Origin: a virus
Taxonomy: Duplodnaviria; Heunggongvirae; Uroviricota; Caudoviricetes
DNA length: 64,000 nt
IMG/VR virus record: IMGVR_UViG_3300023297_000003
Strand: one strand, 5' to 3'
Position 1 is the stretch's first letter, and each line of letters opens with the position of its first letter. This document shows positions 14,137-54,891 of the stretch, in pieces. The position numbers and the translations under genes are program-made. Under the pieces are notes generated by a model. It did not search any database and was not told the DNA's origin. It saw nothing but the letters and a program-made list of their open reading frames with translations.

Positions 14137-14772
14137 ATGACACTTTTAGAACAGCACCGTGACCTGGCCCTCATGATCCTCGTAGGCAGGGCACTTCCCG
14201 AAGGACTGCCCTGGACCCCGGATGAGGACCAGGGCTTCGTGTCCCGTGAGCGCCTCCTGTGGGTCCAGTTGACCGAAGAGGAGCAGGCACAGGAACAGGA
14301 GGCTCTGGGGGCGCTGTGGGGCAAGCGTGGCGCTCCCCGTACCGTTCCCGTGAATCCCCAGTGGGGTGCTTGGACAGAGGGCCTCACCGAGGTCTCGATC
14401 CCTGACTCGGCGTTCGGTTTACCGGACAACGCCTTCCGCCCCTTGGTGAAGGGCATCCAGATCCTGGCCGAGGAGCACCCCGAGTTGATCGTCCTGTTAG
14501 AGTGGTTGTGGAAGCGGGGGTTCCATCCCGTTGCTTTCGATGGGGACACCCTCACGCTGCTCATCCCGCCCCACAGAATCGTCCAGGAGTCCGAGCGGCT
14601 GGTTGGGATCCTCATCCGGGACTGGCCCAAGATCCCCGTGGTGTCCCGCCCGGCGGAGGCGTCCCTGACCGTTAAGGGTTCCTATGACCCCGTGAGCGGT
14701 CAGGCGATCATCTATCTGTCAGGGGTCACGCCGTTTCAATCCACGCACCTTTTGCCAAAAGATGCGACTTAG
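14137..14772 (+). CDS. hypothetical protein
   Basis: 211-aa ORF with protein-like composition; opposite ORF 14100..14630 is R/S-rich artefact; 3' end contains SRU2. Confidence 0.5.
   Translation: MTLLEQHRDLALMILVGRALPEGLPWTPDEDQGFVSRERLLWVQLTEEEQAQEQEALGALWGKRGAPRTVPVNPQWGAWTEGLTEVSIPDSAFGLPDNAFRPLVKGIQILAEEHPELIVLLEWLWKRGFHPVAFDGDTLTLLIPPHRIVQESERLVGILIRDWPKIPVVSRPAEASLTVKGSYDPVSGQAIIYLSGVTPFQSTHLLPKDAT
14733..14768 (+). repeat. solitary CRISPR-repeat-like unit (SRU2), 30/36 identical to array repeat
   Basis: gtttcaatccacgcaccttttgccaaaagatgcgac; both handles conserved, central hairpin replaced. Confidence 0.6.
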
Positions 14773-33742: not shown

Positions 33743-33748
33743 TGAGGG

Positions 33749-34027
33749 GTGGACCCACTGGACACCTCTTCCCGAAGACCCCACGGAGGCCACATGAAAT
33801 ATATTTGTAGTCATGCTACAGATCCTCGGTGTCCTTACCCCAACACTTGTCCCCACTTCGGACATCATGAGTGGAATAGCGACGAGTTTGATGATGAGGA
33901 GTGTGGCGAAGCTGAATGTGAGATTCGGGAAGGGGACTCCATCGGGGTAATCCTCTGTGTCAATTGCGTGCCTGTGCAGGAAAACGGCAGCGCAGAGACG
34001 CTTCCCGTTCCGTCCAGGGCACTGTAG
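33749..34027 (+). CDS. Cys/His-rich small protein
   Basis: 92 aa, CxxxxxxC, CPHFGHHEW, CGEAEC, CVNC. Confidence 0.4.
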   Translation: MDPLDTSSRRPHGGHMKYICSHATDPRCPYPNTCPHFGHHEWNSDEFDDEECGEAECEIREGDSIGVILCVNCVPVQENGSAETLPVPSRAL

Positions 34028-34271
34028 TTGAGGAGAAGAATATGGCCGATTGTATTTCTAGTGGACTTAGAGCTAGGATGAGTAAAGACCCCTCACTGGG
34101 GGGGCTATAGTTCACGCCGCTTCCTTGCGGAATACGAAAAGGCGCATATTGGCCCTCAAGAAACTTGGACTTAAACTTGTGGCCAATATGCGAGTGCCAC
34201 GCTAGGAAGTCCTCAGCGTCGAGTTTGAAGAAGAGTACTGAACGAACTGAAAACCGAACAGGAGCGATATC

Positions 34272-34538
34272 ATGACGAAGTCTACACCCGTAATCACCAA
34301 GGGTCATTCCTACACCAAGGGTCCGTACCGCTGGTCGGAGGATTATCAGGAGGTGACCATCTCGGTCCCCGGTTACGGTGGCACCAAGCGTGTCCTCAAC
34401 GTGACCCGGAAGGAAGCCACCCCCGAGAAGCTGGAAGTGCTCCGCATCGCTGAGGGTACCCGGATCGTGGAGATCATCGAGGCCCATTCCCTGACGTTCG
34501 GTAAGGAAGAGGTCGCTAAAAAGAAAGTGGCTGCGTAG
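34272..34538 (+). CDS. hypothetical protein
   Basis: 88-aa ORF. Confidence 0.45.
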   Translation: MTKSTPVITKGHSYTKGPYRWSEDYQEVTISVPGYGGTKRVLNVTRKEATPEKLEVLRIAEGTRIVEIIEAHSLTFGKEEVAKKKVAA

Positions 34539-34656
34539 CCGTTCTCCTAACCGTCAAAAACGCACAACCACAAGGCCCCGACTTTTAGGAGCGTTGATCC
34601 AGCCCCCTGAGCGGCCACTCCTGAGTCAGGTCATCAAGGTGGAACATCAACATCGT

Positions 34657-35042
34657 GTTTCAATCCACATACCGTTCCTTAAAACCTGCTAAAATGTAAC
34701 AGGCATCAAGTTTGAAGCTGTGCCGAATCTTGGTGTCCCAAGTACCTCGGTAGTAAACTTCCGGCCCAACGGTAAGGGCTCGAATGACGGTTGCTCCTTC
34801 CGTCCGAATCCCAAGGAACTGGTCCGTTTAACACGGAATCGCTCTCTTAGCACTCGTTTTATGCCTCTCGGATGATCGTTAGTTTTGATGCGTTCGTCCC
34901 CAGAACATCTGGGCACACCAGAACCTCCTACCCAATCAGCATGAGCTTTCCTGCCGCAACAGCTCCCTGTTTCAAGCAGGAACAGTTAGACTTTAGCAGG
35001 TATGAAGGGCACTGTCAAGTACCCTTTGTCAAAGGATACGAC
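34657..35042 (+). repeat. solitary CRISPR-repeat-like unit (SRU3) split by insertion of mini element B
   Basis: left flank gtttcaatccacata (34657-34671), right flank tttgtcaaaggatacgac (35025-35042) together resemble one 36-bp repeat. Confidence 0.5.
34672..35024 (-). mobile_element. 353-bp miniature TnpB-derived element (mini B)
   Basis: same composition and deletion junction as mini A; right end ccgttcc.. at 34672, left-end hairpin gggcactgtcaagtaccc 35007-35024. Confidence 0.7.
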
Positions 35043-35071
35043 TCGACTCTTTATATTGCGTCTGCCCTGCT

Positions 35072-35971
35072 TCAAACTACCTTTTGTCCTTTCAGGGGCA
35101 CAATGAGGTAGCCCAAGAGCGGCCATTTCTCGGCAATCTCATCAATACGGTACCGCAACATCGTCAGACGGACGTGGAAGTCCCGCATCTCAACCAGGGG
35201 AGCAGTGTGGTCTGCATGGTTCCTGGCGCTCTTGCAACCGTTCCACAGGCCCATCCACTTCCATTCGTCAGGGAGACCCCGGCAGTTGGCCTTACCAACG
35301 CCCCTGTGGGCCGCTGCAAGCTGTTCCTCCCGGAGGGTGTGTACGGCGTGGATCATTGCGTCACGGGCACAGAAACGCTCCAGGGCGCACTCAGAGGACA
35401 CATCCCGACCCGTGTCCCGTTCAAAGTCTCGCAACCAGGACCACCCGCAGAACCGCTTGGAGTCCTCAGGGCCACCGACCCGCTCGACCACGTCCCGAAG
35501 CTGATACAGACCGACGTCGAGGTGGTTCCTCCAAACATGCCGCTTTTTCCGGCAGTTCGTGTAGCAGGAGCCGAGCTTGACGCACTTCTTCTCCCAGCGT
35601 TCTTTGCTCTCGTTGTAGAAGGGCTCACCCCACACCTTACAGTAGTTGATGACGTCACGGTCCCCACCGCTTTCCGTGGAAACAATGTGGGCGATGAGCA
35701 TCGGCTCCTCTGCCGTGTGCAAGGCCACATGTAGGATGTCCTCTATTACGGTGTCATCGAACCCGAAGTGCTCCTTGATCATCCAGTAGTTGATCTCCTC
35801 CTCCACGTCAACGGTGAGGATCAACTCAGCCTCTTCCGCTGTGATGGTCTCCGCCACTGCAGTGAGGGTCTGGTCGTAAGAGTACGGGGTATATGCAGGG
35901 TGGGTGGTCTGCTCCGGGGTCGTTGTCCCCAGGACGGCTAAGACCGCCAGTTTCATCCAAAGCGTCATCAT
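35072..35971 (-). CDS. secreted protein, possible lytic transglycosylase-like
   Basis: signal peptide MMTLWMKLAVLAVLG; HIVSTESGGDRDVI resembles SLT ES-motif (weak). Confidence 0.35.
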   Translation of the reverse strand: MMTLWMKLAVLAVLGTTTPEQTTHPAYTPYSYDQTLTAVAETITAEEAELILTVDVEEEINYWMIKEHFGFDDTVIEDILHVALHTAEEPMLIAHIVSTESGGDRDVINYCKVWGEPFYNESKERWEKKCVKLGSCYTNCRKKRHVWRNHLDVGLYQLRDVVERVGGPEDSKRFCGWSWLRDFERDTGRDVSSECALERFCARDAMIHAVHTLREEQLAAAHRGVGKANCRGLPDEWKWMGLWNGCKSARNHADHTAPLVEMRDFHVRLTMLRYRIDEIAEKWPLLGYLIVPLKGQKVV

Positions 35972-36054
35972 TTGAACCTCCTTTCAGGCCCCTTGTCTAC
36001 TCCGTTCTAGGGGAAGGGGCGTGCCTGGATCGGGAGTATAACTGGATCACCGAT

Positions 36055-37245
36055 GTTTCAATCCACGCCCCCTCATGGGAACGACGAGGTTGTCTACACT
36101 TACTACCCTAATGTTTCAATCCACACACCCGTGAGGGAGTGACCCCTTCTGCCTCGCTGCGGTTTCGTTTCAATCCACGCATCCCCTTGTTAGATGGTAC
36201 GACGGCAGGGTTGCGCCTTCTCAGGGATCAGTCCGAATCAGCGTTTCAATCCACGCACCCCTTGTTAGAGGATGCGACGTGAGCCGACCAGCCAGTTCCC
36301 CGTAAATCGGATTTAGTTTCAATCCACGCATCCTTTTTTCAGAGGATGCGACAGTAAGGCAGGCATGGCTCGTGGGGCGCTGGCTCACTGCGTTTCAATC
36401 CACGCACCCTTTGTTAGAGGATGCGACCGGTCACCCACGGACCAGGGGTGGAGTTCGCTTACGTTTCAATCCACGCACCCTTTGTTAGAGGATGCGACTT
36501 CGCCAGCGCCTTCAGGGCGGGAGTCGCAAGGGGGATCTCGTTTCAATCCACGCACCCTTTGTTAGAGGATGCGACGCTCCAAGGGCGGACAGGAAAGGGA
36601 AGTGTCATCGGATTGTTTCAATCCACGCATCCTTTGTTAGAGGATGCGACTTGTGACCGTCATTCCTGGATTTCGCCCAACTTCGAGTTTCAATCCACGC
36701 ATCCTTTGTTAGAGGATGCGACGAGGAAGACCGTCTTGTCCCGTCGAGCAGTCCTCTGAGCGTTTCAATCCACGCATCCTTTGTTAGAGGATGCGACACG
36801 GCGTCCCCAGGCCGTGGGAGCCGTTCTGTGGGCCTGTTTCAATCCACGCATCCTTTGTTAGAGGATGCGACTTCAGCTTCCCCTCTGGATCCTTGACGGC
36901 GAGGCACTTGTTTCAATCCACGCATCCTTTGTTAGAGGATGCGACACCCACCAAGTCGCACTCGACTGGGTCGCTGTTTGAAAGTTTCAATCCACGCATC
37001 CTTTGTTAGAGGATGCGACACCACCATAGGTCGGCTTCTTCCCCGCCAGGTCCACAGTGTTTCAATCCACGCATCCTTTGTTAGAGGATGCGACTGGTGA
37101 TCTCATCCGGGGTGTCATGCGGGCAGTAACGTTTCAATCCACGCATCCTTTGTTAGAGGATGCGACTTTCCGTTGGCTTGAGCCCGCTGGACGCCTGCAC
37201 GTACTCTCTGTTTCAATCCACGCATCCTTTGTTAGAGGATGCGAC
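36055..37245 (-). CRISPR. type I-C CRISPR array, 17 repeats of 36 bp (GTCGCATCCTCTAACAAAGGATGCGTGGATTGAAAC in transcript sense), 16 spacers of 35-43 nt
   Basis: direct repeat count by eye; leader-distal repeats at 36055-36280 degenerate; perfect repeats next to cas7. Confidence 0.95.
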
Positions 37246-37441
37246 AGTGCCCCTCGCAAACCGTTGTGGGACGCAGCTTTCCCGCCCCCTTTGCGAGCGG
37301 TCCTTCCCAACCGTCACTTTTCAAGCCGTTTGGTTCGGTTATCAAAGAACGGCTGCGGTATAACGACCCCAGATCACGGGGTTTTCTGGGTTGCGAGCGA
37401 CTCCGGGGTTTTCGTCGCCACGGAACCGCTCGCAAAGGGCC
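37246..37441 (-). promoter_or_regulatory. CRISPR leader
   Basis: 196 bp between last perfect repeat and cas7 stop; contains three gctcgcaaag-like elements. Confidence 0.45.
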
Positions 37442-38467
37442 TTACTGGATGGCCCGGAACTCGACACCTTCCGGGAGCTTGGACTCGTCCACGGTGACAG
37501 TGTAGTCGTCGAAGGACATCGGGGCCTCTACCCCGTCCTTTTTGACCACAGTCACGATGCGTCCGTTGTCCAGCAGCTTATGGGCCGGGGCGCACCCGAG
37601 CTTGGCCTGCTGTGCCCGCTCTTCGGGGTCGTCCGCCGTCCCGACGTGCTTGAAGATGTAGATGCCCCGACAGGTCATCAAACCCTTGCTGGAGGTCCGA
37701 TCATGGTCGTACATGTTTTCCAGACCCTCGATCATCAGGGCCAGATCCTCCGCCGAGAAGCCCGTCTGTTCCGCCACGAAAGCGCTCACCGTGATGTTGG
37801 CAGCGAAGAGACCGTAGGGGATGATCGCCTTGGTTCCCATCGTGCGGAGAGCCGCCGCCTCGGCCCCGTCCTCATACTCCTGCCACTGGGCGGAGGAGAA
37901 ACCCTGATCCTTGGGGGTCTTGACCTTCTTGGGATCAGGGGAGCCCTTGGTGTCGGTCATGCGGGTGATGGTGATCTCCTGGATGGATACCGGATCGAGG
38001 GACCGGGCACTCACCACCTGGACGGGTCCACGAATCTGGCCCGCCTTGGCACCTGTGTTGAGAACACCGCCGAAGGTGCGGACATCCCAATAGTCCTGGC
38101 ACATCCGGTCACCCGCCGCCCGCTCCTCCTGCTTGGTAGCCTTCGCCGGGACGGTCCCGTGGGAGTCCTCGTGGGCCTTGGCGATGAGCCTGTTGGTACA
38201 GGTGTTCATCATCAGCAAAATCTGGTACGGGGTCTTGCCTGCCTTGCGGAGACTCACGTAGTTGCGGAGACGCCGCTTGATGGCGACGTCGGTGACGAAC
38301 CCGTGTCCCGTGTCCGGGATGGTCCGGGGCAGGTTGCCGAAGTCGGGGTCACCGTTGGGATTCCCCATCAGACAATCGAACAGGAACAAGATCTCGAACC
38401 TGTATCCGATTGCCGCCGTCCCACTCTTCAGCCACATCAAAAGATCCTTCATGATACTTCTCCTCAC
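37442..38467 (-). CDS. cas7: Cas7 (Csd2, type I-C)
   Basis: FLFDCLMGNPNGDPDFGNLPR Csd2 signature; start may be M6 (38452). Confidence 0.8.
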   Translation of the reverse strand: MRRSIMKDLLMWLKSGTAAIGYRFEILFLFDCLMGNPNGDPDFGNLPRTIPDTGHGFVTDVAIKRRLRNYVSLRKAGKTPYQILLMMNTCTNRLIAKAHEDSHGTVPAKATKQEERAAGDRMCQDYWDVRTFGGVLNTGAKAGQIRGPVQVVSARSLDPVSIQEITITRMTDTKGSPDPKKVKTPKDQGFSSAQWQEYEDGAEAAALRTMGTKAIIPYGLFAANITVSAFVAEQTGFSAEDLALMIEGLENMYDHDRTSSKGLMTCRGIYIFKHVGTADDPEERAQQAKLGCAPAHKLLDNGRIVTVVKKDGVEAPMSFDDYTVTVDESKLPEGVEFRAIQ

Positions 38468-38512
38468 TTTATGCCTAATCCAACTCTAAGGCCCACCTTA
38501 GGCCATTAGAGA

Positions 38513-40345
38513 CTATGCCTTAATCGGGGGTGTCCCTGCGGGCTTGTCCTGCTTCTTCCAGGACGAGCGCTGGTGGAGCAACCCCATGGCAAACAAAGCT
38601 TGATCCTCGATGCCGAGGCGGGTCGGAAGGTCTGTGGGCAGGCGGTCGACGATCTCCTGCCGTTTGTGATCCGCCCATCCCTTTCCCTGTCGGACGAGCT
38701 TGTTGACGTGCTTCTCGGAACGGAGCAGTAACCGGGCCAGCGCACGGGCCGGGTTCTGCATCGTTGCGGACGAGAACTGAGCAGCCAGGGCCATCGGGGG
38801 GTTCCTCCCACCGATGGCGAGGCTCTGGAGTTCGGACAGGACGGACAACAACCGCCCACACTGGTACGCCACACTCGGGTGGTCCTTGTTCAATCCTGCT
38901 TCACACATGGTGTTCCCTCTCCTGTTGATGAAGGTTTTGAGGATTCCCGGCAATGCCGGAGCGATCCCCATGTTGGTTGACGGTTTGATGGACAGGTGCA
39001 ACTGTGACCGGAACTGCACCAGGGCCTTTTTGACAATGCTCATTGGGACCGACTGGCCCCGCAGGGCTACCTGAACGAGCATCTCACGCTCCAGTTCGGA
39101 AGCTTTGCCCCTTGGGCCGTTGACAGCGGAAAGGATCTGCCAGAGTGCAGAAAGGCGGGCGATCCCCGTGTCATTGCGGTTGTTGCTGATGGTCATATCC
39201 TGATACCATCGATAGATGTTCTTGAACAGGACGGACAGGGGTCCAGTCTCCCAGTGCCGGACAGCCAACCGGGGACCGTTGCTAGAAACGATGCCCAAGG
39301 TGCAGTCCATGTCTAGGACACCTCCCGGTCCGGTGCCCGTGTCCAGGTATTCCTTCACCTTCCGGGTGGCACCCCGGAGTTCCCCATCCGTCAATCCCGA
39401 GTTCAAGAGGTCGGACATAACGTCGGACAGGATCTGGGTCCACTCGCCCCCTTCAAGAACCGGCCCTTGGCCCGCCAGCAGTCCAGCCTTCCCCGTAAGG
39501 GTTTCTCCCCTGGAACAAGCCCACACAAGGATTCGAAGATCCCCAAAGGCCGTCCCGGCGTTTTGGGCGGCATGAACCAGAGCCTGGGTCATTGTGCTCG
39601 CCGTCTGGTCTGACATCGGAGCAACGAGGCCAGACTCCTGGCCATAGTGGTGACTGGAGGTCTGCTTGGCGGCAACCAGCTTCGTCTTCGTTGTGCCGAA
39701 GGCAATGCCGTCAGGATGGATGCGGCAGGGGTTCGTGATCTCGTCCCCGGTGACGACGCAGCGGAACGTCTTATCGCTGGTCTTCTTCTTTTTGTCCGCT
39801 CCTGAAAGGTAGGTCGCCCACCACTCCCGCCATTCCTTCTTGTCCTGGAACGGGATGCCGAGTTTCTTCCCCTCGGTCTGGAAGATCACAGCCCGCTTGA
39901 GGTCTGCCTCCATCTTCGTCAGAGCCTGAACCACAAGGGCGACCTGCTCGTCGTCCTCCAGGAAGGTCTGGATGGGGGTCAGGTACTTCCGAGTGCAGGG
40001 AACCTCCTTGATGACCGTTCTGATCTGCTCCAGGAAGAGGCCCCTCTTCACCTCGTTCTTGGTGTTGTCGTGCGGTTCGGCCACGAGGAGAGGGAACACC
40101 TGGGGGACATACCCGATGAAGAAGTGAGTCTTGGGGGGCGTGGCCCTGAGCAAATTGGAGGGCACCCGAGGTGTCAGGATCGGGGAGGCCGTCTTGGTGT
40201 CCCTGAGGTGACAGTCCTGGTACTTCCCGTCCGGGGTCAGGCACACTACGGTTTCCACGACGGTCAGGTACTCGTACCCCACCGGAGCCTGCTGGGGCAT
40301 ATAGTGTGCGGCATAGTTGAGGAGGCTCTGTCCGATACCACTCAT
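38513..40345 (-). CDS. cas8c: Cas8c (Csd1) large subunit
   Basis: 610 aa between cas5c and cas7, size and position typical of Csd1; no independent motif. Confidence 0.65.
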   Translation of the reverse strand: MSGIGQSLLNYAAHYMPQQAPVGYEYLTVVETVVCLTPDGKYQDCHLRDTKTASPILTPRVPSNLLRATPPKTHFFIGYVPQVFPLLVAEPHDNTKNEVKRGLFLEQIRTVIKEVPCTRKYLTPIQTFLEDDEQVALVVQALTKMEADLKRAVIFQTEGKKLGIPFQDKKEWREWWATYLSGADKKKKTSDKTFRCVVTGDEITNPCRIHPDGIAFGTTKTKLVAAKQTSSHHYGQESGLVAPMSDQTASTMTQALVHAAQNAGTAFGDLRILVWACSRGETLTGKAGLLAGQGPVLEGGEWTQILSDVMSDLLNSGLTDGELRGATRKVKEYLDTGTGPGGVLDMDCTLGIVSSNGPRLAVRHWETGPLSVLFKNIYRWYQDMTISNNRNDTGIARLSALWQILSAVNGPRGKASELEREMLVQVALRGQSVPMSIVKKALVQFRSQLHLSIKPSTNMGIAPALPGILKTFINRRGNTMCEAGLNKDHPSVAYQCGRLLSVLSELQSLAIGGRNPPMALAAQFSSATMQNPARALARLLLRSEKHVNKLVRQGKGWADHKRQEIVDRLPTDLPTRLGIEDQALFAMGLLHQRSSWKKQDKPAGTPPIKA

Positions 40346-41013
40346 GCTGCACCCCCTGGCCGGAACACGGCGGCACTATCAGTGAACTCCGGGTAGGCCA
40401 CGGCCCCATCCTTGATCTGTGCGTGGAACACGCTGACCGAAGGATCTCCATCGGGCACCAGCAGATTGAAGGTGTCGTAGACCATCACCCCCACGTCCAC
40501 CTGAAGGTCTGCGAGTCCCTGTGATGGATCATGCTCATCCACCGGGACAAGCTGGAAGTTGGCCATAAACTCCTTGCAACCTAAGAAGGGCTGGTGGAAA
40601 CATTGGCCCCTCTCCGCCCGACGACGGAATTGGGCGTCGATGGCGTTGGTGTTCCCATCAGGATTCCGGCAGACCGCCCGTGCGAAGATGCGGTACCGGG
40701 GGTCCAGGAGAGTCCTGGTGTGCTTTTGGGTCCGGTGCTTCTGGGTTGTAAGATCAACCTGAAGAGTGCGGCGGGTGACCTTGTCTTTCATCTCGTTCCG
40801 CATGATCCCCATGTACCGGATCGGGTTCACAACCTCTACCCCGACGATCTGCCAGTAGAAGTTGGCGGACCTTTTCCAGTAGATAGCGTCGAAGATCCCC
40901 CGACAGGCTGAGTGGGTTGGGATGGGGTAGGTGGTCCGCTCCGTCACCTCTGGGCGGGAGAAGCAGGCATTGTCCCCCCACACTTCCAACCCGTGCAGCA
41001 TACCTTTTTTCAT
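40342..41013 (-). CDS. cas5: Cas5c (Cas5d) pre-crRNA endonuclease subunit
   Basis: 223 aa, N-terminal GLEVWGDNACFSRPE resembles Cas5 glycine-rich region; position upstream of cas8c. Confidence 0.7.
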   Translation of the reverse strand: MKKGMLHGLEVWGDNACFSRPEVTERTTYPIPTHSACRGIFDAIYWKRSANFYWQIVGVEVVNPIRYMGIMRNEMKDKVTRRTLQVDLTTQKHRTQKHTRTLLDPRYRIFARAVCRNPDGNTNAIDAQFRRRAERGQCFHQPFLGCKEFMANFQLVPVDEHDPSQGLADLQVDVGVMVYDTFNLLVPDGDPSVSVFHAQIKDGAVAYPEFTDSAAVFRPGGAA

Positions 41014-41107
41014 CTGTCCCTCCGTCTGTTTATCCAGCCGAGTTTCTTCGGCGGCACTTCTTACTACTCAATGAAGTCGCAAAAGGAACCCCTGTCCGCA
41101 GACTTTT

Positions 41108-43486
41108 TCATTGCACCAGCCCAAGTTCCGGGTGGTAGGCTCTTGGGTCAGTGCAGATGTACCAGCCCGTTTCGGTGATGGAGCCGTCCTTCCTTTTCAG
41201 CGTGACGGGGTCAAGGCTGAGCCAGAGGGGGTGATCCTTCTTCAGTGACAGAACAGAGACCGATAGCAGGGCCGCTCGGTTCATCCACATCCGGAAGCTT
41301 TTCCGGGTGGGCCGCTCCTTGTTGAGTTTCCTGTACTGCTCCCCACACCCTCCTTCCAGGTAGGGAACGACGACCTGGACCCCTTTGTCGGGAATGACCC
41401 GGTAGCGTCGACTGACCTTCTCGAAGGAACCCTCCTGGTACGCCTCGATGATCTTTTTGGTGGCCGGGTGATCTAGCCCTGCTTCCCGATAGAGGGCCTC
41501 ATAGTACTGGGTCAAGATTTCCGGGTTCGTCGGGTCGAGACGTTGTCCGTAGCGCCGGAGGAACCGCTCCGTGATCCGGGCAGCAGCCTGGAACCACTCG
41601 TCATGCGGGAACATGTCCTTGTATTCAACGTCCGGGCGGAAAACGAAGATGTCCCCTAGTACCCGCAAGCCCTCCCGGTTTACCCGCCCAGCGGTTTGTG
41701 CCGTCCCATCCAACGGTCCCATGGCCGGGAAGCCCCTGTTGAAGTCGAAGTCCGTCCCTGAGTTCACACAAGGAGTAGCTGCCAGAACGAAGTAGTCCCC
41801 AACGGTCTTCAACCGACGAACCACCTCTTTGAGTAGCCCCTTCCGGTGGGCTGGACACAGGTTGGAAGTCAAATAGATAGCTCGATCCGCCCCCCACCGT
41901 GTCTGTATTTCCCTCCAGGCCGCTTCCGCATGGTCCTTCCTGTTGAGAAGCACGAGGTTTGACATCCTTTCCGAACACACCCGGTCAGCCAACTGCGCCC
42001 AGGTCCACCTCTCGTCGTCGTTGTGCGGCCAGTGAAACTTGTTGCGGACCATCGCCTTGGCCGAGGCTACGGGGGCGGAGGCAATCTCCTCGTAGGGCTG
42101 GAGCGGTTCCCCCACGAGTGTTTCTACCTGAGGCAGGATGCTCTGGAAGGCAGGCTGGGTGGCCGTGGCAGACACCACCGTGACCTGATACTGACGGCTG
42201 AGTCGGTCGAGCATTGCTATTGTGGGGAGCATAAGGTGGCTGGGCAAAGACTGGCCCTCATCAAAAATGATCACGCAGTCCTGGATGTTGTGGAGTTTCC
42301 GGCATCTCCCTGGCCGATTGGAAAACAAGGACTCCAATAGTTGAACGTTCGTGGTGAGGATGATTGGTGCATCCCAGTTTTCAGTGAGCCCTCGTCGGTC
42401 AATCTCATTTGATCTACCATCCTGTTGGAGATCCTCCTCTTCGACCCACTGCGTGGCGTCCGTGTGATGCTCCAACACAAAGTGGGGACCGAAGGCCCGG
42501 TCCTTGAAAAGCTCCTTCAGGGTTTTCGCCGTCTGTTGAATGATGCTTTTGTAGGGTACAGCGATGATCACCCGTTTAAGTTGGTGGGCCTGACAGTGCG
42601 CCAGGGCGAACGAGACCAGCGCTAGAGTTTTGCCTACACCGGTGGGGGCTGTACAGGTCAAAATGCGTCCTGGAGGCCCCTGGGCGGCTCTGAGGCAGTC
42701 CTGTCGTAGACGGTCCCGTTCCTGTTGCACCACAGGGGAAGCACCATCGCTGCGTTTGCTCTTGGCACTGAGGCCGTCGATGTATTTGTTCAAAACGTCA
42801 AGGGCGAGACCGGCGTCCAACGGGGGGTTGGGACAGGTGCGCCCTGGTTTGAAGTGCTCGGCGGTGTCCAGGAAGTCGGCGTCAACGAGCGCAGAAAAGG
42901 CCATTCGGACATCCAAGCCCTTGGCAATGGACAACTGCCAGCCTTTCACCAGTTCAGAAAAAGAAAAGAAGGTCTCATCATCATTTATATTGATTTCAGG
43001 AAGCTCGATGCCATCCTCACGTAGGGGAACCAACAAGTCTTTCGCTGGCCCCGGATAGACATGGAAGACACCGGGGTTAGGATGAGTCCCGCTACCCATC
43101 GGCTGTGCAGAGGGGCGTAGGACACACCCCAAATAGACGCGTGAGAAATCCGGCAGACCCCTATGGTGTCCGGCGATCAACAGGGAAGCGAGGAGGGATC
43201 CTCGGTCGTAAGCAACCCAGGCTCCAGGTGAGGAATGATCCAGCACCCCTCGGGCTACCCCGTTCAGTACATCAGGGAACAGGGGACTGTATTTGCCGAT
43301 GTCATGCCCCCGGCTGGCGAAAGAAACCTCTCTGACGTGCTGGGGTGGGAAGTGGGTGCCCAGGAAACGGAGAGTCAGCGCTTCAACCCCCAACAGATGT
43401 TCCACCATCGTTTGGACCTTGCCGGTTACTTTGCTGGCGCTGTGGGCTATTCGGTTCCAGTTGGGCATCTGTCCCCCCCTATACAC
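41108..43486 (-). CDS. cas3: Cas3 HD nuclease-helicase
   Basis: N-terminal HD (HDIGKYSP, HHRGLPDF), Walker A TCTAPTGVGKT, DExx IFDEGQ. Confidence 0.85.
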   Translation of the reverse strand: MYRGGQMPNWNRIAHSASKVTGKVQTMVEHLLGVEALTLRFLGTHFPPQHVREVSFASRGHDIGKYSPLFPDVLNGVARGVLDHSSPGAWVAYDRGSLLASLLIAGHHRGLPDFSRVYLGCVLRPSAQPMGSGTHPNPGVFHVYPGPAKDLLVPLREDGIELPEININDDETFFSFSELVKGWQLSIAKGLDVRMAFSALVDADFLDTAEHFKPGRTCPNPPLDAGLALDVLNKYIDGLSAKSKRSDGASPVVQQERDRLRQDCLRAAQGPPGRILTCTAPTGVGKTLALVSFALAHCQAHQLKRVIIAVPYKSIIQQTAKTLKELFKDRAFGPHFVLEHHTDATQWVEEEDLQQDGRSNEIDRRGLTENWDAPIILTTNVQLLESLFSNRPGRCRKLHNIQDCVIIFDEGQSLPSHLMLPTIAMLDRLSRQYQVTVVSATATQPAFQSILPQVETLVGEPLQPYEEIASAPVASAKAMVRNKFHWPHNDDERWTWAQLADRVCSERMSNLVLLNRKDHAEAAWREIQTRWGADRAIYLTSNLCPAHRKGLLKEVVRRLKTVGDYFVLAATPCVNSGTDFDFNRGFPAMGPLDGTAQTAGRVNREGLRVLGDIFVFRPDVEYKDMFPHDEWFQAAARITERFLRRYGQRLDPTNPEILTQYYEALYREAGLDHPATKKIIEAYQEGSFEKVSRRYRVIPDKGVQVVVPYLEGGCGEQYRKLNKERPTRKSFRMWMNRAALLSVSVLSLKKDHPLWLSLDPVTLKRKDGSITETGWYICTDPRAYHPELGLVQ

Positions 43487-43551
43487 ACAGCTACTCGGGG
43501 AAGACCGGCGATGATCAATTGGGGGACTGGGATCTCGTCAGATGTGTCGAG

Positions 43552-43905
43552 TTAGTCCGTGGTGGGTACTGGCGGCAGGACCGGAAGGTGGACAACATAG
43601 ACGTCCAGATGGGTCACGACGATGTAGGAGGGATCCTTCCTCGCCCTGTCCAAATCCTTCATCAGGGCCTCCAACTCGTCAGCGTCGGCTCCCTCCGCAG
43701 TAACCAGGGGGACCATCCCCTCCTGCTGTTCTACAGTCTGTAGGGTGACGTCGAAGTTGGTGACCACGATGTAGTCAGGATCCTGCGAGGCTTTGGCGAC
43801 CTCGTCCCGGAACGCCTGAACCTGTTCCGGCGTGTGGTCTGTTGCTGTGAGAATGTGAATATCCGGCATGGTCTTCCTCCTGTGTTTCTCTACCGTACCG
43901 AGCAA
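43552..43905 (-). CDS. hypothetical protein with internal tandem duplication
   Basis: DPDYIVVTNFDVTL / DPSYIVVTHLDVYV repeats; immediately upstream of cas3 on same strand. Confidence 0.45.
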   Translation of the reverse strand: MLGTVEKHRRKTMPDIHILTATDHTPEQVQAFRDEVAKASQDPDYIVVTNFDVTLQTVEQQEGMVPLVTAEGADADELEALMKDLDRARKDPSYIVVTHLDVYVVHLPVLPPVPTTD

Positions 43906-43907
43906 AA

Positions 43908-43936
43908 GGGATCATCTCGGAACCTCTCTGAGTAGA
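43908..43936 (+). promoter_or_regulatory. conserved promoter-like motif
   Basis: gggatcatct-N13-agtagac. Confidence 0.5.
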
Positions 43937-43938
43937 CA

Positions 43939-44101
43939 GTGTGTACCGACCGGCTAGAACAGCGGTCTGATAAACCGAAGATGTAGGTAGCCAGTCCTAC
44001 TACAAGGTCGTAGCTCGTGTTCGAGCGTGGCTCTGATAAAGCCAAGGTGTGGTTCAATTCCACCGACTGAGTGGTAGTTTAATAAGCTGGTCGGTACACA
44101 C
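43939..44101 (+). other. structured leader / candidate ncRNA: 13-bp perfect long-range inverted repeat enclosing five hairpins (tRNA-like anticodon and T arms)
   Basis: gtgtgtaccgacc at 43939-43951 and its exact complement at 44089-44101; two CUGAUAA loops; GGTTCAATTCC. Confidence 0.35.
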
Positions 44102-44191
44102 GACGGAGGTTCTCAATGACCGACAAATCGACCGTAACCGGACGTCTACTGGTTTTCAGGGAAAAGCACGGGGACCTGTACTATGATGCCA

Positions 44192-45700
44192 CTACGGACG
44201 AGATGGCTCAGGCTGCAATGATCCAGGTGGTGAACAGGCGGTTCGCTGATGGACACTGGTACCGTTCCTTAAAACCTGCTGGAATGTAACAGGCATCAAG
44301 TTTGAAGCTGTGCCGCTGCCAAATGACTCTGATCCAACGGTAGTAAGCCTCTGGCCCAACGGTAAGGGCTCGAATGACGGTTGCTCCTTCCGCCCGAATC
44401 CCAAGGAACTGGTCCGTTTAACACGGAATCGCTCTCTTAGCACTCGTTTTACACCTCTTGGATGATCGCCAGCTTTGATGTGTTCGTCTTCAGAACGTCT
44501 GAGCACACCAGAACTTCCCACCCAATCAGCGTGAGCCTTCCTACCGCACGAGCGGCAATGGAACCTTATTGAACTTCGGTTGCCTCGATGAATGTAACCG
44601 CAGGAGGGGCACTCCTGCGACGTATAAGCCGGGTTCACCTTCTCTGTTGGGGCTTTTCTCTCCAAGTTGGTCTGTAACGCCCTGTAAGCAAACCGCTTTT
44701 GGCCTCGGCAACCTCGAAGGTCGAGATCCTCGACCACGAACACTGTCTCAGGATGGCGGACGATAAGGGTGTTTACTACACGACCCGTTTCTGTCTTGAT
44801 CAACCCACTCAGCTTGCTTTCAAGGTGATCCAACTTTGGGCTGTTGTCCTTCAGGTCCTGTCGTTGGCGGTTTGCTCGGAGATTTCTGACACGAGCGTAG
44901 AGCTTGTCGAACTTAGGTTTGACGTGTTCACCATAGGTCACGCCATCTGAAGTAGCTGCAAGCACGTTCAAGCCCACATCCACACCCAACTTAGGCCAAT
45001 CTTCCTGTGCTTCAGGAATGGTCCACTCAGCCTTGCTAACTGCCTCAAAGCGCCAGAACCCCTTCTTGGTTTTACGGGCTGATATCCCCTTGTTAACCTG
45101 ATCAGCCTGCTGGATGTAAGGATTCCCAACAAGAGGCAACCAGACGGATTTCCGAGCTTCCAACGAGGACACCCTCAGCCAAAAACCCCCCAAAGGAGCT
45201 TTAGTTGTGTCTTCCAATCGAGCCGTCATTTCTGACAACCTCATGGGTAGGTTGTCCCTTACGATAGGCTTGTTGCCTCCGTAGGTGTCCAACAGGGTGT
45301 GATAAGCATCGAGATGGTCTTGGGTGATGAACTCCCATGGCTTGCTGATGGACTTCAACCCGATGACACAGAGTGCTTTGGCGTCCTGATCGGTGAGGGT
45401 ACCGTCATGCTTGAGATTGGTGATAGTCGGCTTTAATTTACGAGCGTAAGTAGCTTTGGCCCAAGCACTTACGATTTGAATTGCATGGTCTCGTGCGATC
45501 TTTTCGATTTGAGACGTAAGATCAGTAGCCCGTGGGAAGAACGTTTGTTTGGCGGCTTTCGGGAGGTTGAGGGTTTGCTGGTTGAGCATCGTCTGTACGC
45601 AGATACGGACGTACTTGACATATGCTTTGTGCAGGGCTTCCAACTTATCGATCTTAGATCGGTTGGTGTCCTTGTGAAGTCGGAAGATGCGACACTTCAT
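44192..45700 (-). CDS. tnpB: TnpB (second copy; 3' tail reads through right end)
   Basis: 502 aa, ~90% identical to 1676..3100 copy, intact RuvC and zinc finger. Confidence 0.85.
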   Translation of the reverse strand: MKCRIFRLHKDTNRSKIDKLEALHKAYVKYVRICVQTMLNQQTLNLPKAAKQTFFPRATDLTSQIEKIARDHAIQIVSAWAKATYARKLKPTITNLKHDGTLTDQDAKALCVIGLKSISKPWEFITQDHLDAYHTLLDTYGGNKPIVRDNLPMRLSEMTARLEDTTKAPLGGFWLRVSSLEARKSVWLPLVGNPYIQQADQVNKGISARKTKKGFWRFEAVSKAEWTIPEAQEDWPKLGVDVGLNVLAATSDGVTYGEHVKPKFDKLYARVRNLRANRQRQDLKDNSPKLDHLESKLSGLIKTETGRVVNTLIVRHPETVFVVEDLDLRGCRGQKRFAYRALQTNLERKAPTEKVNPAYTSQECPSCGYIHRGNRSSIRFHCRSCGRKAHADWVGSSGVLRRSEDEHIKAGDHPRGVKRVLRERFRVKRTSSLGFGRKEQPSFEPLPLGQRLTTVGSESFGSGTASNLMPVTFQQVLRNGTSVHQRTACSPPGSLQPEPSRP

Positions 45701-45775
45701 TTACTGACCTCTGCTTCTTGTTTCAAGCAGGAATAGTTAGATTTTAGCAACTAAATTGGGTACTGTCAAGGACCC
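44262..45775 (-). mobile_element. IS1341-type (tnpB-only) IS200/IS605-family element
   Basis: right end ccgttcc.. at 44262; left-end hairpin gggtactgtcaaggaccc 45758-45775; no tnpA. Confidence 0.75.
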
Positions 45776-46465
45776 CGACCCAGGGCCAGAGCCTTCGAGC
45801 CTTTCCGAGGAGACCCGTTCCGACCTCCAAACACGTTCTCTGGAATTCGCTGTGGACGCCCAGCACAACCCCTACCTAAGAGCACTGCAAAATGACAGGC
45901 AGTCCCTCAAGATTTGGGAGACCAGAAGGAAACATTTTGAACTGGCGCAGAAGGCGTCAGAAGGGGACGCTGAGGCTGCTCTGGAGTTGCTCACTACTCG
46001 TGGAAGTTACGAGTACGAGGGTTGGGACTATGAGCATGTCCAGTGCGCTGTTCCCTTTCCCTCTGAACCACTCGATGTGGCGCTAACAATAGTGGTGGAA
46101 GCTATAAGGTCAGCGGAAAAGCGGGCAATTCGGGCAAAGGCCACAGCAGACAGGGTACAGGAAAAGGATCGACAGGAAAAGGCCCTGAACAGGGCCTTAC
46201 AAGCAGACAACAAAGCCAAAGTGCTCCGAGGGATCCTGCGGGACATTTGTAGGGCCACGGCTCACGCTCTTCCGGAAAACGAAAAGGACTAGGTGATGGG
46301 AAAAACAGGGGACCGGAAAAAGGGGCCAAACCTTCAAAACATCCCTATCAGGACACCTGAGGGAAGGCGTATTCGTGATGCGTTCCGCCGTCCCCTTCCT
46401 CATGTGGACTATGCCACTCTTGAACGGCACCTCCTTGAAAGAGGGGTTGTGCCTTCTGACTTTCA

Positions 46466-46518: not shown

Positions 46519-46534
46519 GAAAAAGGAGCACCCA

Positions 46535-46789: not shown

Positions 46790-46793
46790 TCCA

Positions 46794-54855: not shown

Positions 54856-54891
54856 ATTTCAATCCACGCATCCATTTCTAAAGGACACGAC
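54856..54891 (+). repeat. solitary CRISPR-repeat-like unit (SRU1), 29/36 identical to array repeat
   Basis: atttcaatccacgcatccatttctaaaggacacgac; 3' handle (transcript sense GGATGCGTGGATTGAAAT) conserved, 5' stem arm lost. Confidence 0.55.

What the first reader, a model, noticed from the sequence alone, without database searches (positions are those of the whole stretch)
36055..43905. Compact type I-C CRISPR-Cas with no adaptation module on a phage-like genome
The minus strand carries cas3, cas5c, cas8c and cas7 followed by a 196-bp leader and a 17-repeat array. Repeats are 36 bp with the type I-C hallmark end GCGTGGATTGAAAC. The last perfect repeat lies 196 bp from the cas7 stop, so there is no room for cas4, cas1 or cas2, and no ORF elsewhere in the window shows Cas1, Cas2 or Cas4 features. 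The surrounding genes (thyX, rtcB, ligA, RNase H, Gp37/Gp68, homing endonucleases, a repeated phage-type promoter) indicate a phage or huge-phage context. Interference-only systems of this kind are thought to be used by phages against competitors or the host. Leader-distal repeats (36055-36280) are degenerate. Spacers are unusually long and variable for type I-C (35-43 nt). cas3 has its own promoter-like motif (43490-43530) and a promoter-like element also lies between cas3 and cas5c.
Basis: partly seen in the sequence, partly recalled or inferred. Interest (0 to 1): 0.65.

Follow-up and report, generated by a model that had tools for sequence, protein, structure and literature searches.

The report
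Huge-phage type I-C CRISPR without adaptation genes

Summary
On the minus strand lie cas3 (HD nuclease plus helicase), cas5c, cas8c and cas7, then a 196-bp leader and 17 repeats. All four proteins match type I-C families. No Cas1, Cas2 or Cas4 appears in a six-frame HMM scan of the window plus flanks (about 73 kb); positive controls worked.

The window is part of JGI contig Ga0208769_1000001, a 528,260-bp circular huge phage from Ace Lake. Panwar et al. 2020 (PMC7416419) already reported its type I-C system, its arrays and the absence of cas1/cas2/cas4. CheckV (PMC8116208) confirmed a terminase and a major capsid protein. Al-Shayeb et al. 2020 described the general pattern.

- Only 14 spacers are 35-43 nt; the last two are 23 and 27 nt.
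- The last two repeats are 31 nt.
- The array looks frozen from 2008 to 2014.

No spacer target and no identical repeat was found in any collection searched.

Not described in the papers read here: three solitary copies of the phage's own 36-nt repeat sit 5-29 nt after stop codons elsewhere in the window. One is split by a TnpB-derived mini-element.

Verdict: real, correctly interpreted, already known.

The parts
41108..43468 (-). cas3 (786 aa): HD nuclease fused to an SF2 helicase
   Evidence: NCBIfam cas3_HD and cas3_core, Pfam DEAD and Cas3-like_C_2. E=1e-71 to the solved type I-C Cas3 8g9u_P. Invariant in an alignment with three bacterial I-C Cas3: H24, H55-D56, D77-H78, H101-H102, D196/D198, the Walker A motif PTGxGKT, DExQ, and QxxGRxNR.
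40342..41013 (-). cas5c (223 aa), the pre-crRNA endonuclease and Cascade subunit
   Evidence: TIGR01876, 102.7 bits against a cutoff of 85. E=8e-31 to the solved I-C Cas5 8g9t_N. Y45 and K47 are invariant against bacterial homologues. A stretch of about 19 aa present in those homologues is missing.
38513..40345 (-). cas8c/csd1 (610 aa), the large subunit; very divergent
   Evidence: PF09709, 225.6 bits. The best non-self hit among 1.84 billion representatives is E=2e-34 at 29-34% identity.
38513..38908 (-). Candidate internally translated Cas11c (131 aa, from M480 of cas8c)
   Evidence: In-frame ATG preceded by AGGAGA 9 nt upstream. The link to Cas11c is an inference from the known I-C arrangement (McBride et al. 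2020, from memory).
37442..38452 (-). cas7/csd2 (336 aa)
   Evidence: TIGR02589, 248.7 bits against a cutoff of 182. 50-53% identical to many bacterial I-C Cas7, with no closer relative.
37246..37441 (-). Leader, 196 nt, between the cas7 stop and R1
   Evidence: No sigma-70-like site was found in it.
36167..37245 (-). CRISPR array R1-R15 (36-37 nt repeats) with spacers S1-S14 (35-43 nt)
   Evidence: The repeat folds as an 8-bp stem with a 7-nt loop followed by an 11-nt single-stranded tail, -11.7 kcal/mol, z=-3.5.
36055..36166 (-). Degenerate array tail: S15 (23 nt), R16 (31 nt), S16 (27 nt), R17 (31 nt)
   Evidence: R16 and R17 resemble the canonical 32-33-nt I-C repeats seen in bacterial loci.
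43485..43513 (-). Weak copy of the phage promoter-like motif upstream of cas3
   Evidence: One search compared; 13 of 18 specified positions match (counted by eye).
43552..43869 (-). orf105, an orphan ORF upstream of cas3 on the same strand; it contains an internal ~45-aa duplication
   Evidence: No family hit. No homologue other than itself among 5.8 billion proteins. The AF2 model is unusable, pLDDT 46.
35072..35971 (-). orf299, an orphan ORF directly downstream of the array, followed by a split solitary repeat
   Evidence: No family hit. The AF2 model is unusable, pLDDT 34.
35019..35042 (-). 5' half (hairpin) of a solitary repeat unit split by an insertion: GTCGTATCCTTTGACAAAGGGTAC
   Evidence: (family D3).
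34670..35018 (-). TnpB-derived mini-element: a TTGACA-17-TAAAGT promoter plus an omegaRNA-like scaffold with no tnpB ORF, inserted in the solitary repeat
   Evidence: 81-89% identical to the 3' ends of the two full tnpB genes. The promoter module is shared with the tnpB at 45713-45775.
34657..34669 (-). 3' half of the split solitary repeat: (T)GTGGATTGAAAC. It occupies the guide position of the omegaRNA-like scaffold.
14733..14768 (-). Solitary repeat unit GTCGCATCTTTTGGCAAAAGGTGCGTGGATTGAAAC, 8 nt after the stop of an Apyc1-like gene
   Evidence: CM hit at 53.7 bits, E=1e-12. Folds as a 10-bp stem. The Apyc1 domain comes from the JGI Pfam call.
54856..54891 (-). Solitary repeat unit GTCGTGTCCTTTAGAAATGGATGCGTGGATTGAAAT, 5 nt after the stop of a 60-aa ORF. 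It fills most of the 41-nt gap between convergent genes.
   Evidence: CM hit at 50 bits, E=1.5e-11. Gene calls.
44002..44073 (+). tRNA-Ile (GAT), preceded by a promoter-motif copy at 43908-43936 (+)
44192..45700 (-). tnpB (502 aa), next to the cas operon. Not part of the CRISPR system.
   Evidence: NF040570 and PF07282. The RuvC D-E-D residues are conserved. The strongest sigma-70-like site in the region is at 45769-45741.

Best explanation
This is the interference-only type I-C CRISPR-Cas locus of the 528-kb Ace Lake huge phage.

Shown here. The genes for Cas3 (HD plus helicase), Cas5c, Cas8c and Cas7 are intact, with catalytic and ATPase motifs conserved. The array is read in the same direction as the cas genes. 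Its nine leader-proximal repeats are identical and its distal end is decayed. There is no Cas1, Cas2 or Cas4 in about 73 kb around the locus.

Inferred mechanism. The array is transcribed from the leader or by read-through from cas7. Cas5c cuts each repeat at the 3' base of the hairpin, leaving the 11-nt handle UGGAUUGAAAC. Cas5c, Cas8c, an internally translated Cas11c and a Cas7 filament assemble on crRNAs with 35-43-nt guides. That length would need roughly one more Cas7 subunit than the canonical 34-nt guide. Cas3 then degrades matching DNA during infection. The targets are most likely competing phages or other mobile elements, and possibly the host.

Spacer origin. The phage cannot acquire spacers by itself. 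The repeat polarity shows past acquisitions at the leader end, either by a host type I-C module acting in trans or before cas4-cas1-cas2 were lost. The array has been static in the consensus genome from 2008 to 2014.
For: - Family assignments.
- Matches to solved I-C Cas5 and Cas3.
- Conserved HD and helicase motifs.
- Array anatomy. Repeat hairpin.
- Absence of Cas1/2/4, with positive controls. JGI Pfam calls: 16, 30, 32, 33.
- The nearest bacterial Cas7 loci all have cas3-cas5-cas8c-cas7-cas4-cas1-cas2, so the phage locus is the same operon cut after cas7.
- G+C of the cas region (0.57-0.60) equals that of the surrounding genome, and copies of the phage promoter-like motif precede cas3 and cas5c, so the locus is a long-term resident.
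- The exact Cas8c protein is on record in 37 collection blocks, 16 of them with contigs of 0.2-1 Mb.
- Literature for this very contig: type I-C, no cas1/2/4, circular, virion size fraction, TerL and MCP.
- Contig lengths of 528,256-528,282 bp and 14-16 detected spacers in every sample from 2008 to 2014 indicate a static array.
- A second-sample contig, L002, is 99.994% identical across the locus.
Against: - No protospacer was found for any spacer in the window and flanks, INPHARED phages, PLSDB plasmids, or IMG/VR (first four spacers only). Panwar et al. also found none in IMG/VR. Both the target class and the PAM are therefore unknown.
- The array did not change in six years, so ongoing use of host adaptation machinery is not supported.
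- The exact repeat occurs nowhere in 185,579 species genomes or in the metagenome and viral collections searched. No host with a compatible array was identified here.
- Cas8c scores below the NCBIfam equivalog cutoff.
- The Cas5c catalytic residues other than Y45 could not be checked.
- No expression data are available.
Confidence: 0.85

Rival explanations
1. Frozen relic. The phage captured the interference half of a bacterial I-C operon together with part of its array, and the locus no longer does anything useful.
For: - The array was static from 2008 to 2014.
- The distal repeats and spacers are decayed.
- No targets were found.
- There is no adaptation module.
Against: - All four ORFs are full length with conserved catalytic motifs.
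- Nine repeats are perfectly identical.
- G+C is ameliorated and phage-type promoter motifs are present.
- Cas8c and Cas7 have diverged far from any bacterial relative.
- The protein sequence is identical across dozens of samples.
- Extra copies of the same 36-nt repeat elsewhere in the genome keep the hairpin through compensatory changes.
Confidence: 0.1
2. The system's main job is RNA processing or regulation of the phage's own genes. Cas5c or Cascade would act on solitary repeats placed at the 3' ends of phage genes. DNA interference would be secondary.
For: - Three solitary copies of the phage's own 36-nt repeat lie 5-29 nt downstream of stop codons, in sense orientation, at convergent gene junctions.
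- The hairpin is kept by compensatory changes: 90.5% of cells paired against at most 72.6% when the structure is slid, and 5 of 9 pairs change on both sides.
Against: - Cas3 has intact nuclease and helicase motifs, and there are 14 diverse spacers. Neither is needed for RNA processing.
- Only three units are known.
- Conservation of the 3' handle is partly an artefact of how I found them, because I searched with the handle.
- There are no expression data.
Confidence: 0.15
3. The adaptation genes exist elsewhere on the same replicon, so the system is complete but split.
For: I could read only about 73 kb of 528 kb.
Against: Panwar et al. checked the IMG annotation manually and report cas1, cas2 and cas4 absent from the phage. 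Almost all huge-phage systems lack them.
Confidence: 0.04
4. The locus is bacterial, either chromosomal or from a mis-binned contig, and not viral.
For: Cas7 resembles Gammaproteobacteria (Methylococcaceae) proteins at about 51% identity. The window itself holds no structural phage genes.
Against: - The contig is circular, 528 kb, with direct terminal repeats supported by paired reads. TerL and MCP were confirmed by HHpred, and it is enriched in the 0.1-um fraction.
- The window is dense with small orphan ORFs, thyX, rtcB, DUF5131 (Gp37/Gp68), an Apyc1-like anti-defence gene and a promoter-like motif with 21 matches.
Confidence: 0.01

Closest known systems
The same locus as published: the Ace Lake cluster-24 huge phage, contig Ga0208769_1000001 (Panwar et al. 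2020, PMC7416419; CheckV, PMC8116208)
   Same: It is the identical sequence. L001 from that contig equals the reverse complement of window 28513-50345. The published statements are the same: type I-C, arrays present, cas1/cas2/cas4 absent, no spacer match in IMG/VR.
   Different: The paper gives no anatomy. It does not describe the 36-nt repeat, the long spacers, the 31-nt terminal repeats, the solitary repeats, the neighbouring tnpB, or the divergence of Cas8c. It proposes that host Cas proteins add spacers, based on identical repeats and spacers on 'bacterial' contigs. I could not test this. I note that short fragments of the phage itself, such as L002, would look exactly like that.
CRISPR-Cas systems of huge phages (Al-Shayeb et al. 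2020, PMC7162821)
   Same: They are phage-borne, and almost all lack Cas1, Cas2 and Cas4. The proposed use is against competing phages or the host. Borrowing of host proteins is proposed for some that also lack effectors and share host repeats.
   Different: The I-C variant described there has an unrelated helicase instead of Cas3. The present system has a bona fide HD-helicase Cas3. With 17 repeats, this array is larger than the median of six in that study.
Canonical bacterial type I-C (D. vulgaris, N. lactamica, B. halodurans; here the loci L006-L009)
   Same: Gene order cas3-cas5c-cas8c-cas7, no Cas6, and the repeat 3' end GCGTGGATTGAAAC.
   Different: There is no cas4-cas1-cas2, and the leader directly follows cas7. 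The repeat is 36 nt with a 7-nt loop, against 32-33 nt with a 3-4-nt loop, although the M. alcaliphilum array has a 37-nt repeat. Spacers are 35-43 nt against mostly 33-36 nt (a few longer). Cas8c is only 29-34% identical to its best relative.
Vibrio phage ICP1 type I-F system
   Same: A phage-encoded class 1 system with a Cas3-type nuclease, used in conflicts between mobile elements.
   Different: ICP1 carries a complete set of CRISPR-Cas genes and can act autonomously during infection, it is a different subtype, and its target (PLE) is known.
Solitary repeat units / RNA anti-CRISPRs (RacrIC1; Camara-Wilpert et al. 2023, PMC10651486)
   Same: A solitary type I-C repeat mimic sits a few nucleotides downstream of a phage gene. 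RacrIC1 lies 11 nt after acrIC5 and is co-transcribed with it. Here the units lie 5, 8 and 29 nt after stop codons, and one follows an Apyc1-like anti-defence gene.
   Different: Here the mimics copy the phage's own unusual 36-nt repeat, and the phage encodes the cognate Cas5c and Cascade. This contig was not found in the stored part of that study's supplementary files (one was cut when stored). No activity has been tested.

Membership tests
Type I-C CRISPR-Cas (interference module) | Cas8c/Csd1 signature large subunit | tested here: met
   PF09709, 225.6 bits against a cutoff of 27, covering 16-556 of 559 model positions. The NCBIfam equivalog TIGR01863 scores 178.3, below its cutoff of 218.65, so this is a divergent member. 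893 relatives at E<=1e-10 in the library of representatives, which carries no family annotation.
Type I-C CRISPR-Cas (interference module) | Cas5c (Cas5d) in place of Cas6 | tested here: met
   TIGR01876, 102.7 bits against a cutoff of 85. Matches the solved I-C Cas5. No Cas6 family appears among Pfam hits on any gene in the window. I did not run a dedicated Cas6 HMM scan.
Type I-C CRISPR-Cas (interference module) | Cas7/Csd2 backbone subunit | tested here: met
   TIGR02589, 248.7 bits against a cutoff of 182.25.
Type I-C CRISPR-Cas (interference module) | Cas3 with a fused HD nuclease and SF2 helicase, catalytic residues present | tested here: met
Type I-C CRISPR-Cas (interference module) | Gene order cas3-cas5-cas8c-cas7, and a repeat ending in the I-C handle ATTGAAAC after a hairpin | tested here: met
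   The order is the same in L006-L009.
Type I-C CRISPR-Cas (interference module) | Cas11c made by internal translation within cas8c | tested here: inconclusive
   There is an in-frame ATG at codon 480 with an AGGAGA 9 nt upstream, giving a 131-aa product. Translation was not shown.
Complete (autonomous) type I-C system | Adaptation module cas4-cas1-cas2 | tested here: not met
   No hit better than E=1.3 in the six-frame scan of window plus flanks, while controls scored 1e-42 to 1e-166. Absence from the whole genome rests on the literature only.
Phage-encoded CRISPR-Cas (huge phage) | The replicon is a virus: terminase, capsid, circular or terminally repeated genome, virion size fraction | not testable with these tools
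   Only contig positions 312,416-385,595 could be read. TerL, MCP, DTR status and size fraction come from PMC8116208 and PMC7416419. The gene content of the window is consistent with a phage.
RNA anti-CRISPR (Racr) / solitary repeat unit | A solitary copy of a CRISPR repeat, similar in sequence and fold, outside any array | tested here: met
   Units at 14733-14768 and 54856-54891, plus the split unit at 35019-35042 and 34657-34669.
RNA anti-CRISPR (Racr) / solitary repeat unit | Expressed as RNA, binds Cas proteins, and inhibits the cognate CRISPR-Cas system | not testable with these tools
   No transcript or functional data are available.

The most novel reading that the evidence does not exclude
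The phage has scattered solitary copies of its own atypical 36-nt type I-C repeat immediately after the stop codons of unrelated genes. In this window these genes are an Apyc1-like anti-defence gene, a 60-aa ORF, and the orphan ORF next to the array.

Because the copies match the phage's own repeat rather than the canonical 32-nt bacterial form, and because they keep the hairpin by compensatory changes, they may be substrates of the phage's own Cas5c or Cascade. Possible roles are:
- 3'-end processing or stabilisation of mRNAs;
- production of array-independent guides;
- timed self-inhibition, or inhibition of the host system, in the manner of a Racr.

That would be a phage combining a CRISPR effector with cognate repeat mimics, a combination I did not find described in the papers read here.

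One copy was hit by a TnpB-derived promoter-plus-omegaRNA mini-element. As a result, that omegaRNA's guide begins with the universal I-C handle GTGGATTGAAAC.
Probability: 0.3. Interest if true: 0.6.

Novelty: already known. Interest (0 to 1): 0.3.

Why it matters
As a finding it adds nothing to the record. The same contig's adaptation-less type I-C system was published in 2020, inside a well-known pattern for huge phages.

Its remaining value is as a well-resolved example:
- It is a complete Cas3-containing class 1 effector in a phage.
- It has a divergent Cas8c.
- It has a lengthened repeat and lengthened spacers.
- Its array stayed unchanged for six years in a natural population. That argues against routine spacer borrowing from the host.

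The solitary repeats are the only part that could lead somewhere new. They offer a testable link between phage-encoded Cascade and repeat-mimic RNAs.

Tried and rejected
- Megablast of window 30000-50000 against INPHARED phages: no match.
- Cas8c-based locus search in IMG/VR: nothing. The exact repeat in the viral, genome and metagenome collections: 0 hits each. The contig and its near-copies appear to be missing from these collections, so neither host arrays nor related phages could be recovered.
- A relaxed 20-mer of the repeat found only canonical 32-33-nt I-C arrays or single repeats in unrelated bacteria. No host candidate emerged.
- Spacer targets were sought in the window and flanks, INPHARED (best E=0.3, chance level), PLSDB, and IMG/VR with S1-S4 as seed patterns with every sixth base free. 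Nothing was found. S5-S16 were not scanned in IMG/VR.
- A regulatory, crRNA-like role for the short S16, or for the sequences that follow the solitary repeats, was considered. There were no partial matches above chance elsewhere in the window. The 21-nt, 2-mismatch match between the split repeat plus its flank and R8 plus the start of S8 is mostly repeat sequence. I estimated by hand (not computed) that such a match would arise by chance in roughly 2% of trials over 16 spacers, and I dropped it.
- orf105 and orf299 gave no Pfam, NCBIfam or PHROG function. orf105 has no homologue other than itself. Single-sequence AlphaFold models had pLDDT 46 and 34, so I ran no fold search.
- Leader comparison with bacterial I-C leaders showed no convincing shared motif.
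- A Fisher test showed changes concentrated in the hairpin rather than the handle of the solitary repeats (p=0.0005). I reject it as evidence of selection, because the units were found by searching with the handle.
- One look-up failed because the start codon differed from the JGI call.


Full report
OBSERVATION

The ORFs are at 41108-43486, 40342-41013, 38513-40345 and 37442-38467. They match Cas3, Cas5c, Cas8c/Csd1 and Cas7/Csd2:
- Cas3: HD domain TIGR01596 above its cutoff, plus DEAD and Cas3_C.
- Cas5c: TIGR01876, 102.7 bits against a cutoff of 85.
- Cas8c/Csd1: PF09709, 225.6 bits. The NCBIfam equivalog scores 178, below its cutoff of 218.65.
- Cas7/Csd2: TIGR02589, 248.7 bits against a cutoff of 182.

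Downstream of the cas7 stop (37442) there are 196 nt of leader and then 17 repeats from 37245 to 36055. R1-R9 are identical: GTCGCATCCTCTAACAAAGGATGCGTGGATTGAAAC, 36 nt. R10-R15 carry a few changes. R16 and R17 are only 31 nt, close to the canonical short (32-33 nt) I-C repeat form. Spacers S1-S14 are 35-43 nt (mean 38.4).

A 37-nt I-C repeat does exist in Methylotuvimicrobium alcaliphilum. The phage repeat folds into an 8-bp stem with a 7-nt loop and an 11-nt single-stranded 3' tail (-11.7 kcal/mol, z=-3.5).

WHERE THE WINDOW COMES FROM

The Cas8c protein is on record, residue for residue, on JGI contig 3300025697|Ga0208769_1000001, which is 528,260 bp long. Locus L001 from that contig is the exact reverse complement of window 28513-50345. 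Window position w corresponds to contig position 377,271 - w. Three papers name this contig.

Panwar et al. 2020 (PMC7416419) describe it as a complete, circular 'huge' phage of about 528 kb (cluster 24) from the anoxic lower zone of Ace Lake, Antarctica. It was recovered mostly from the 0.1-um fraction between 2008 and 2014. [quoted passage not shown]' They add that the spacers matched nothing in IMG/VR. [quoted passage not shown]

The CheckV paper (PMC8116208) singles out the same genome as the longest DTR contig in IMG/VR. It is estimated 100% complete, and TerL and the major capsid protein were confirmed by HHpred. Al-Shayeb et al. 2020 (PMC7162821) had already shown that almost all huge-phage CRISPR systems lack Cas1, Cas2 and Cas4. 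The finding is therefore correct and already published, for this very sequence.

INDEPENDENT CHECKS OF THE INTERPRETATION

I built HMMs for Cas4, Cas1 and Cas2 from four bacterial I-C loci (L006-L009) and searched every stop-to-stop frame of at least 25 aa in the window and both flanks (contig 312,416-385,595). The best hits were E=1.3-3. Leave-one-out controls on a bacterial locus gave 7.5e-83, 1.8e-166 and 4.7e-42. Precomputed Pfam hits on the JGI gene calls over the same stretch list no Cas1, Cas2, Cas4 or Cas6. I could not read the other 455 kb, so absence from the whole genome rests on Panwar et al.

The gene content of the window fits a phage. It includes:
- ThyX
- RtcB
- an NAD-dependent ligase
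- RNase H
- DUF5131 (Gp37/Gp68)
- a faint LAGLIDADG hit
- a PARP-like protein
- a GmrSD_N protein
- an anti-Pycsar Apyc1-like hydrolase
- many small orphan ORFs

A motif, GGGATCATCT-N12-GAGTAGT, has 21 matches within three mismatches (0.09 expected). The matches lie mostly on the strand of the neighbouring genes and, where I checked, just upstream of start codons. Weaker copies precede cas3 (43513-43485) and cas5c. G+C of the cas region (0.57-0.60) matches the rest of the window.

IS THE SYSTEM LIKELY TO WORK?

Cas3 aligns over residues 76-704 with the solved type I-C Cas3 (8g9u_P, E=1e-71). In an alignment with three bacterial I-C Cas3 proteins, these are invariant: the HD residues (H24, H55-D56, D77-H78, H101-H102, D196/D198), Walker A (PTGxGKT), DExQ, and QxxGRxNR.

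Cas5c matches the solved I-C Cas5 (8g9t_N, E=8e-31). It keeps Y45 and K47 and lacks a stretch of about 19 residues present in its bacterial relatives. I could not map the remaining catalytic residues.

cas8c has an in-frame ATG at codon 480 preceded by AGGAGA, which would give a 131-aa product. This fits the known internal translation of Cas11c in type I-C (the precedent is from memory, McBride et al. 2020).

Cas7 is 50-53% identical to a broad set of bacterial I-C Cas7 proteins, with no closer relative. Cas8c has no relative better than 29-34% identity (E=2e-34) among 1.84 billion representatives. The nearest bacterial Cas7 loci examined all read cas3-cas5-cas8c-cas7-cas4-cas1-cas2. The phage locus therefore looks like that operon cut after cas7, with a leader and array attached.

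HOW IT MOST LIKELY WORKS

Shown here: intact interference genes, an array transcribed in the same sense as the cas genes, decay polarity pointing to a leader at the cas7 end, and no adaptation genes nearby.

Inferred: Cas5c processes the pre-crRNA at the base of each hairpin. Cascade assembles on guides of 35-43 nt, which implies roughly one more Cas7 subunit than on a 34-nt guide. Cas3 then degrades matching DNA during infection.

The targets are unknown. No spacer matched the window or flanks, INPHARED phages (best E=0.3), PLSDB plasmids, or IMG/VR for S1-S4 with every sixth base left free.

The origin of the spacers is also open. Nine identical leader-proximal repeats followed by progressive decay show past growth at the leader end. 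However, the consensus genome did not gain a spacer between 2008 and 2014. Contig lengths are 528,256-528,282 bp, with 14-16 spacers detected in every sample (Table S10). A contig from another sample is 99.994% identical across the locus.

The exact repeat was absent from 185,579 species genomes and from the viral and metagenome collections available here. A relaxed 20-mer found only ordinary 32-33-nt I-C repeats.

I also note that identical spacers on 'bacterial' contigs are what short fragments of the phage itself would look like. L002 is a 26-kb example carrying the same cas genes and array and no cas1/2/4. This is a caution, not a test.

The wide spread of spacer lengths would fit acquisition without Cas4 trimming. 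That inference rests on published Cas4 work recalled from memory. It was not tested.

THINGS NOT IN THE PUBLISHED DESCRIPTION

The 12-mer GTGGATTGAAAC (at most 1 mismatch) occurs 20 times against 0.29 expected, and three of the sites lie outside the array, all on the minus strand.

Two are complete 36-nt solitary repeats:
- 14768-14733, GTCGCATCTTTTGGCAAAAGGTGCGTGGATTGAAAC, lies 8 nt after the stop of the Apyc1-like gene and overlaps the end of a convergent ORF.
- 54891-54856, GTCGTGTCCTTTAGAAATGGATGCGTGGATTGAAAT, lies 5 nt after the stop of a 60-aa ORF in the thyX gene cluster and fills most of the 41-nt gap to the convergent DUF3228 gene.

The third is split. Its hairpin half (35042-35019, GTCGTATCCTTTGACAAAGGGTAC) lies 29 nt after the stop of orf299, the gene just beyond the array. 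Its handle half, (T)GTGGATTGAAAC, is at 34669-34657. Between the two halves sits a 349-bp element made of a strong sigma-70-like promoter (TTGACA-17-TAAAGT) joined to the last ~300 nt of a tnpB gene, that is, its omegaRNA region, with no tnpB ORF.

A covariance model built from the repeats scores the two intact units at 50-54 bits (E about 1e-11 to 1e-12) and finds no others in 106 kb of sequence held (window plus overlapping flank loci, about 73 kb of contig). Across array repeats and solitary units the stem is kept by compensatory changes. 90.5% of cells are paired, against at most 72.6% when the structure is slid, and 5 of 9 pairs change on both sides. All units fold.

The apparent perfect conservation of the handle is partly ascertainment, because I searched with it. 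I therefore do not use the Fisher test.

The layout of a repeat mimic a few nucleotides after a phage gene is that of RacrIC1. RacrIC1 lies 11 nt after acrIC5, is co-transcribed with it, and inhibits type I-C (PMC10651486). Type I-C solitary repeats are common in viral contigs in that study's tables, though this contig was not found in the stored part.

What is unusual here is that the mimics copy the phage's own 36-nt repeat, and the phage encodes the matching Cas5c and Cascade. Possible roles are Cas5c-dependent processing or stabilisation of mRNA 3' ends, array-independent guides, or Racr-like inhibition of a host system or of the phage's own. None can be decided with the data at hand.

OTHER CONTEXT

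- A tRNA-Ile (44002-44073, +) with its own promoter-motif copy lies between orf105 and a 502-aa tnpB (44192-45700, -).
- The window holds three tnpB genes with intact RuvC D-E-D residues. Two are 91% identical, and one of those has an IS607-type serine recombinase.
- At least three omegaRNA-like solo copies are present: 34671-35018, 53217-53516 and 17402-17629.
- orf105 upstream of cas3 and orf299 downstream of the array are orphans. Single-sequence structure predictions for both were unusable.

COMPARISON AND VERDICT

The locus is a member of type I-C by every effector-module criterion tested. It fails only the 'complete system' criterion of cas4-cas1-cas2. It belongs to the known class of adaptation-less CRISPR-Cas systems of huge phages. 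It differs from the I-C variant of Al-Shayeb et al. in having a genuine Cas3.

Because the same contig's system was described with the same interpretation in 2020, the novelty class is 'already known' and the interest is low (0.3). The residual interest lies in the solitary repeats, which I rate at about a 30% chance of reflecting a real interplay with the phage's own Cas proteins.

Noticed in passing
window 14733-14768 (-), 54856-54891 (-), and 35019-35042 with 34657-34669 (-): Three solitary copies of the phage's own 36-nt type I-C repeat lie outside the array. Each sits 5-29 nt after the stop codon of a minus-strand gene, at a convergent gene junction. The hairpins are kept by compensatory changes. 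The layout resembles RacrIC1 downstream of acrIC5, but here the phage encodes the cognate Cas proteins.
   Followed up: partly
window 34670-35018 (-): A 349-bp TnpB-derived mini-element (sigma-70-like promoter plus omegaRNA-like scaffold, no tnpB ORF) is inserted inside one solitary repeat, between the hairpin and the handle. The omegaRNA guide position therefore reads TGTGGATTGAAACACGATG..., which begins with the conserved type I-C repeat handle.
   Followed up: partly
window 1676-3100 (-), 12406-13836 (-), 44192-45700 (-); solo copies at 17402-17629 (+) and 53217-53516 (-); promoter modules at 45713-45775 and 53508-53570: There are three tnpB genes with intact RuvC D-E-D residues. Two are 91% identical, and the one at 1676-3100 has an IS607-type serine recombinase at 3097-3852. 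Several promoter-plus-omegaRNA or omegaRNA-only remnants are also present. G+C is lower around the full tnpB genes (0.50-0.52) than in the rest of the window, suggesting recent arrival. Stand-alone omegaRNAs could in principle supply extra guides to TnpB in trans.
   Followed up: partly
21 sites across the window, e.g. 29126-29154 (-), 46794-46822 (+), 57607-57635 (+): The motif GGGATCATCT-N12-GAGTAGT has 21 matches within 3 mismatches (0.09 expected). The matches lie mostly on the strand of the neighbouring genes. In several aligned copies the motif is followed by a hairpin like GGGGCAAATGACCCC, and in the copy I read closely also by a ribosome-binding site just before a start codon. It is likely a phage-specific promoter and 5'-UTR module.
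   Followed up: partly
window 44002-44073 (+): A tRNA-Ile (anticodon GAT) lies between the cas operon and tnpB, on the opposite strand, preceded by a copy of the promoter-like motif at 43908-43936 (+).
   Followed up: yes
window 14777-15544 (-): A 255-aa metallo-beta-lactamase-fold protein carries a Pfam Anti-Pycsar_Apyc1 hit. It is a candidate anti-defence (cyclic-nucleotide-degrading) gene, and a solitary CRISPR repeat follows it directly.
   Followed up: no
window 36055-36143 (-): The last two repeats of the array are 31 nt with a short loop, like the canonical 32-33-nt bacterial I-C repeats. They flank a 27-nt spacer. They may be the remnant of the ancestral array, from before the repeat gained about 4-5 nt in its hairpin.
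   Followed up: partly
window 46856-48403 (+) and 32960-33742 (+): A WGR-PARP-like protein (513 aa) and a GmrSD_N/DUF262 protein lie close to the CRISPR locus. Both are domains often tied to conflicts over DNA or defence.
   Followed up: no
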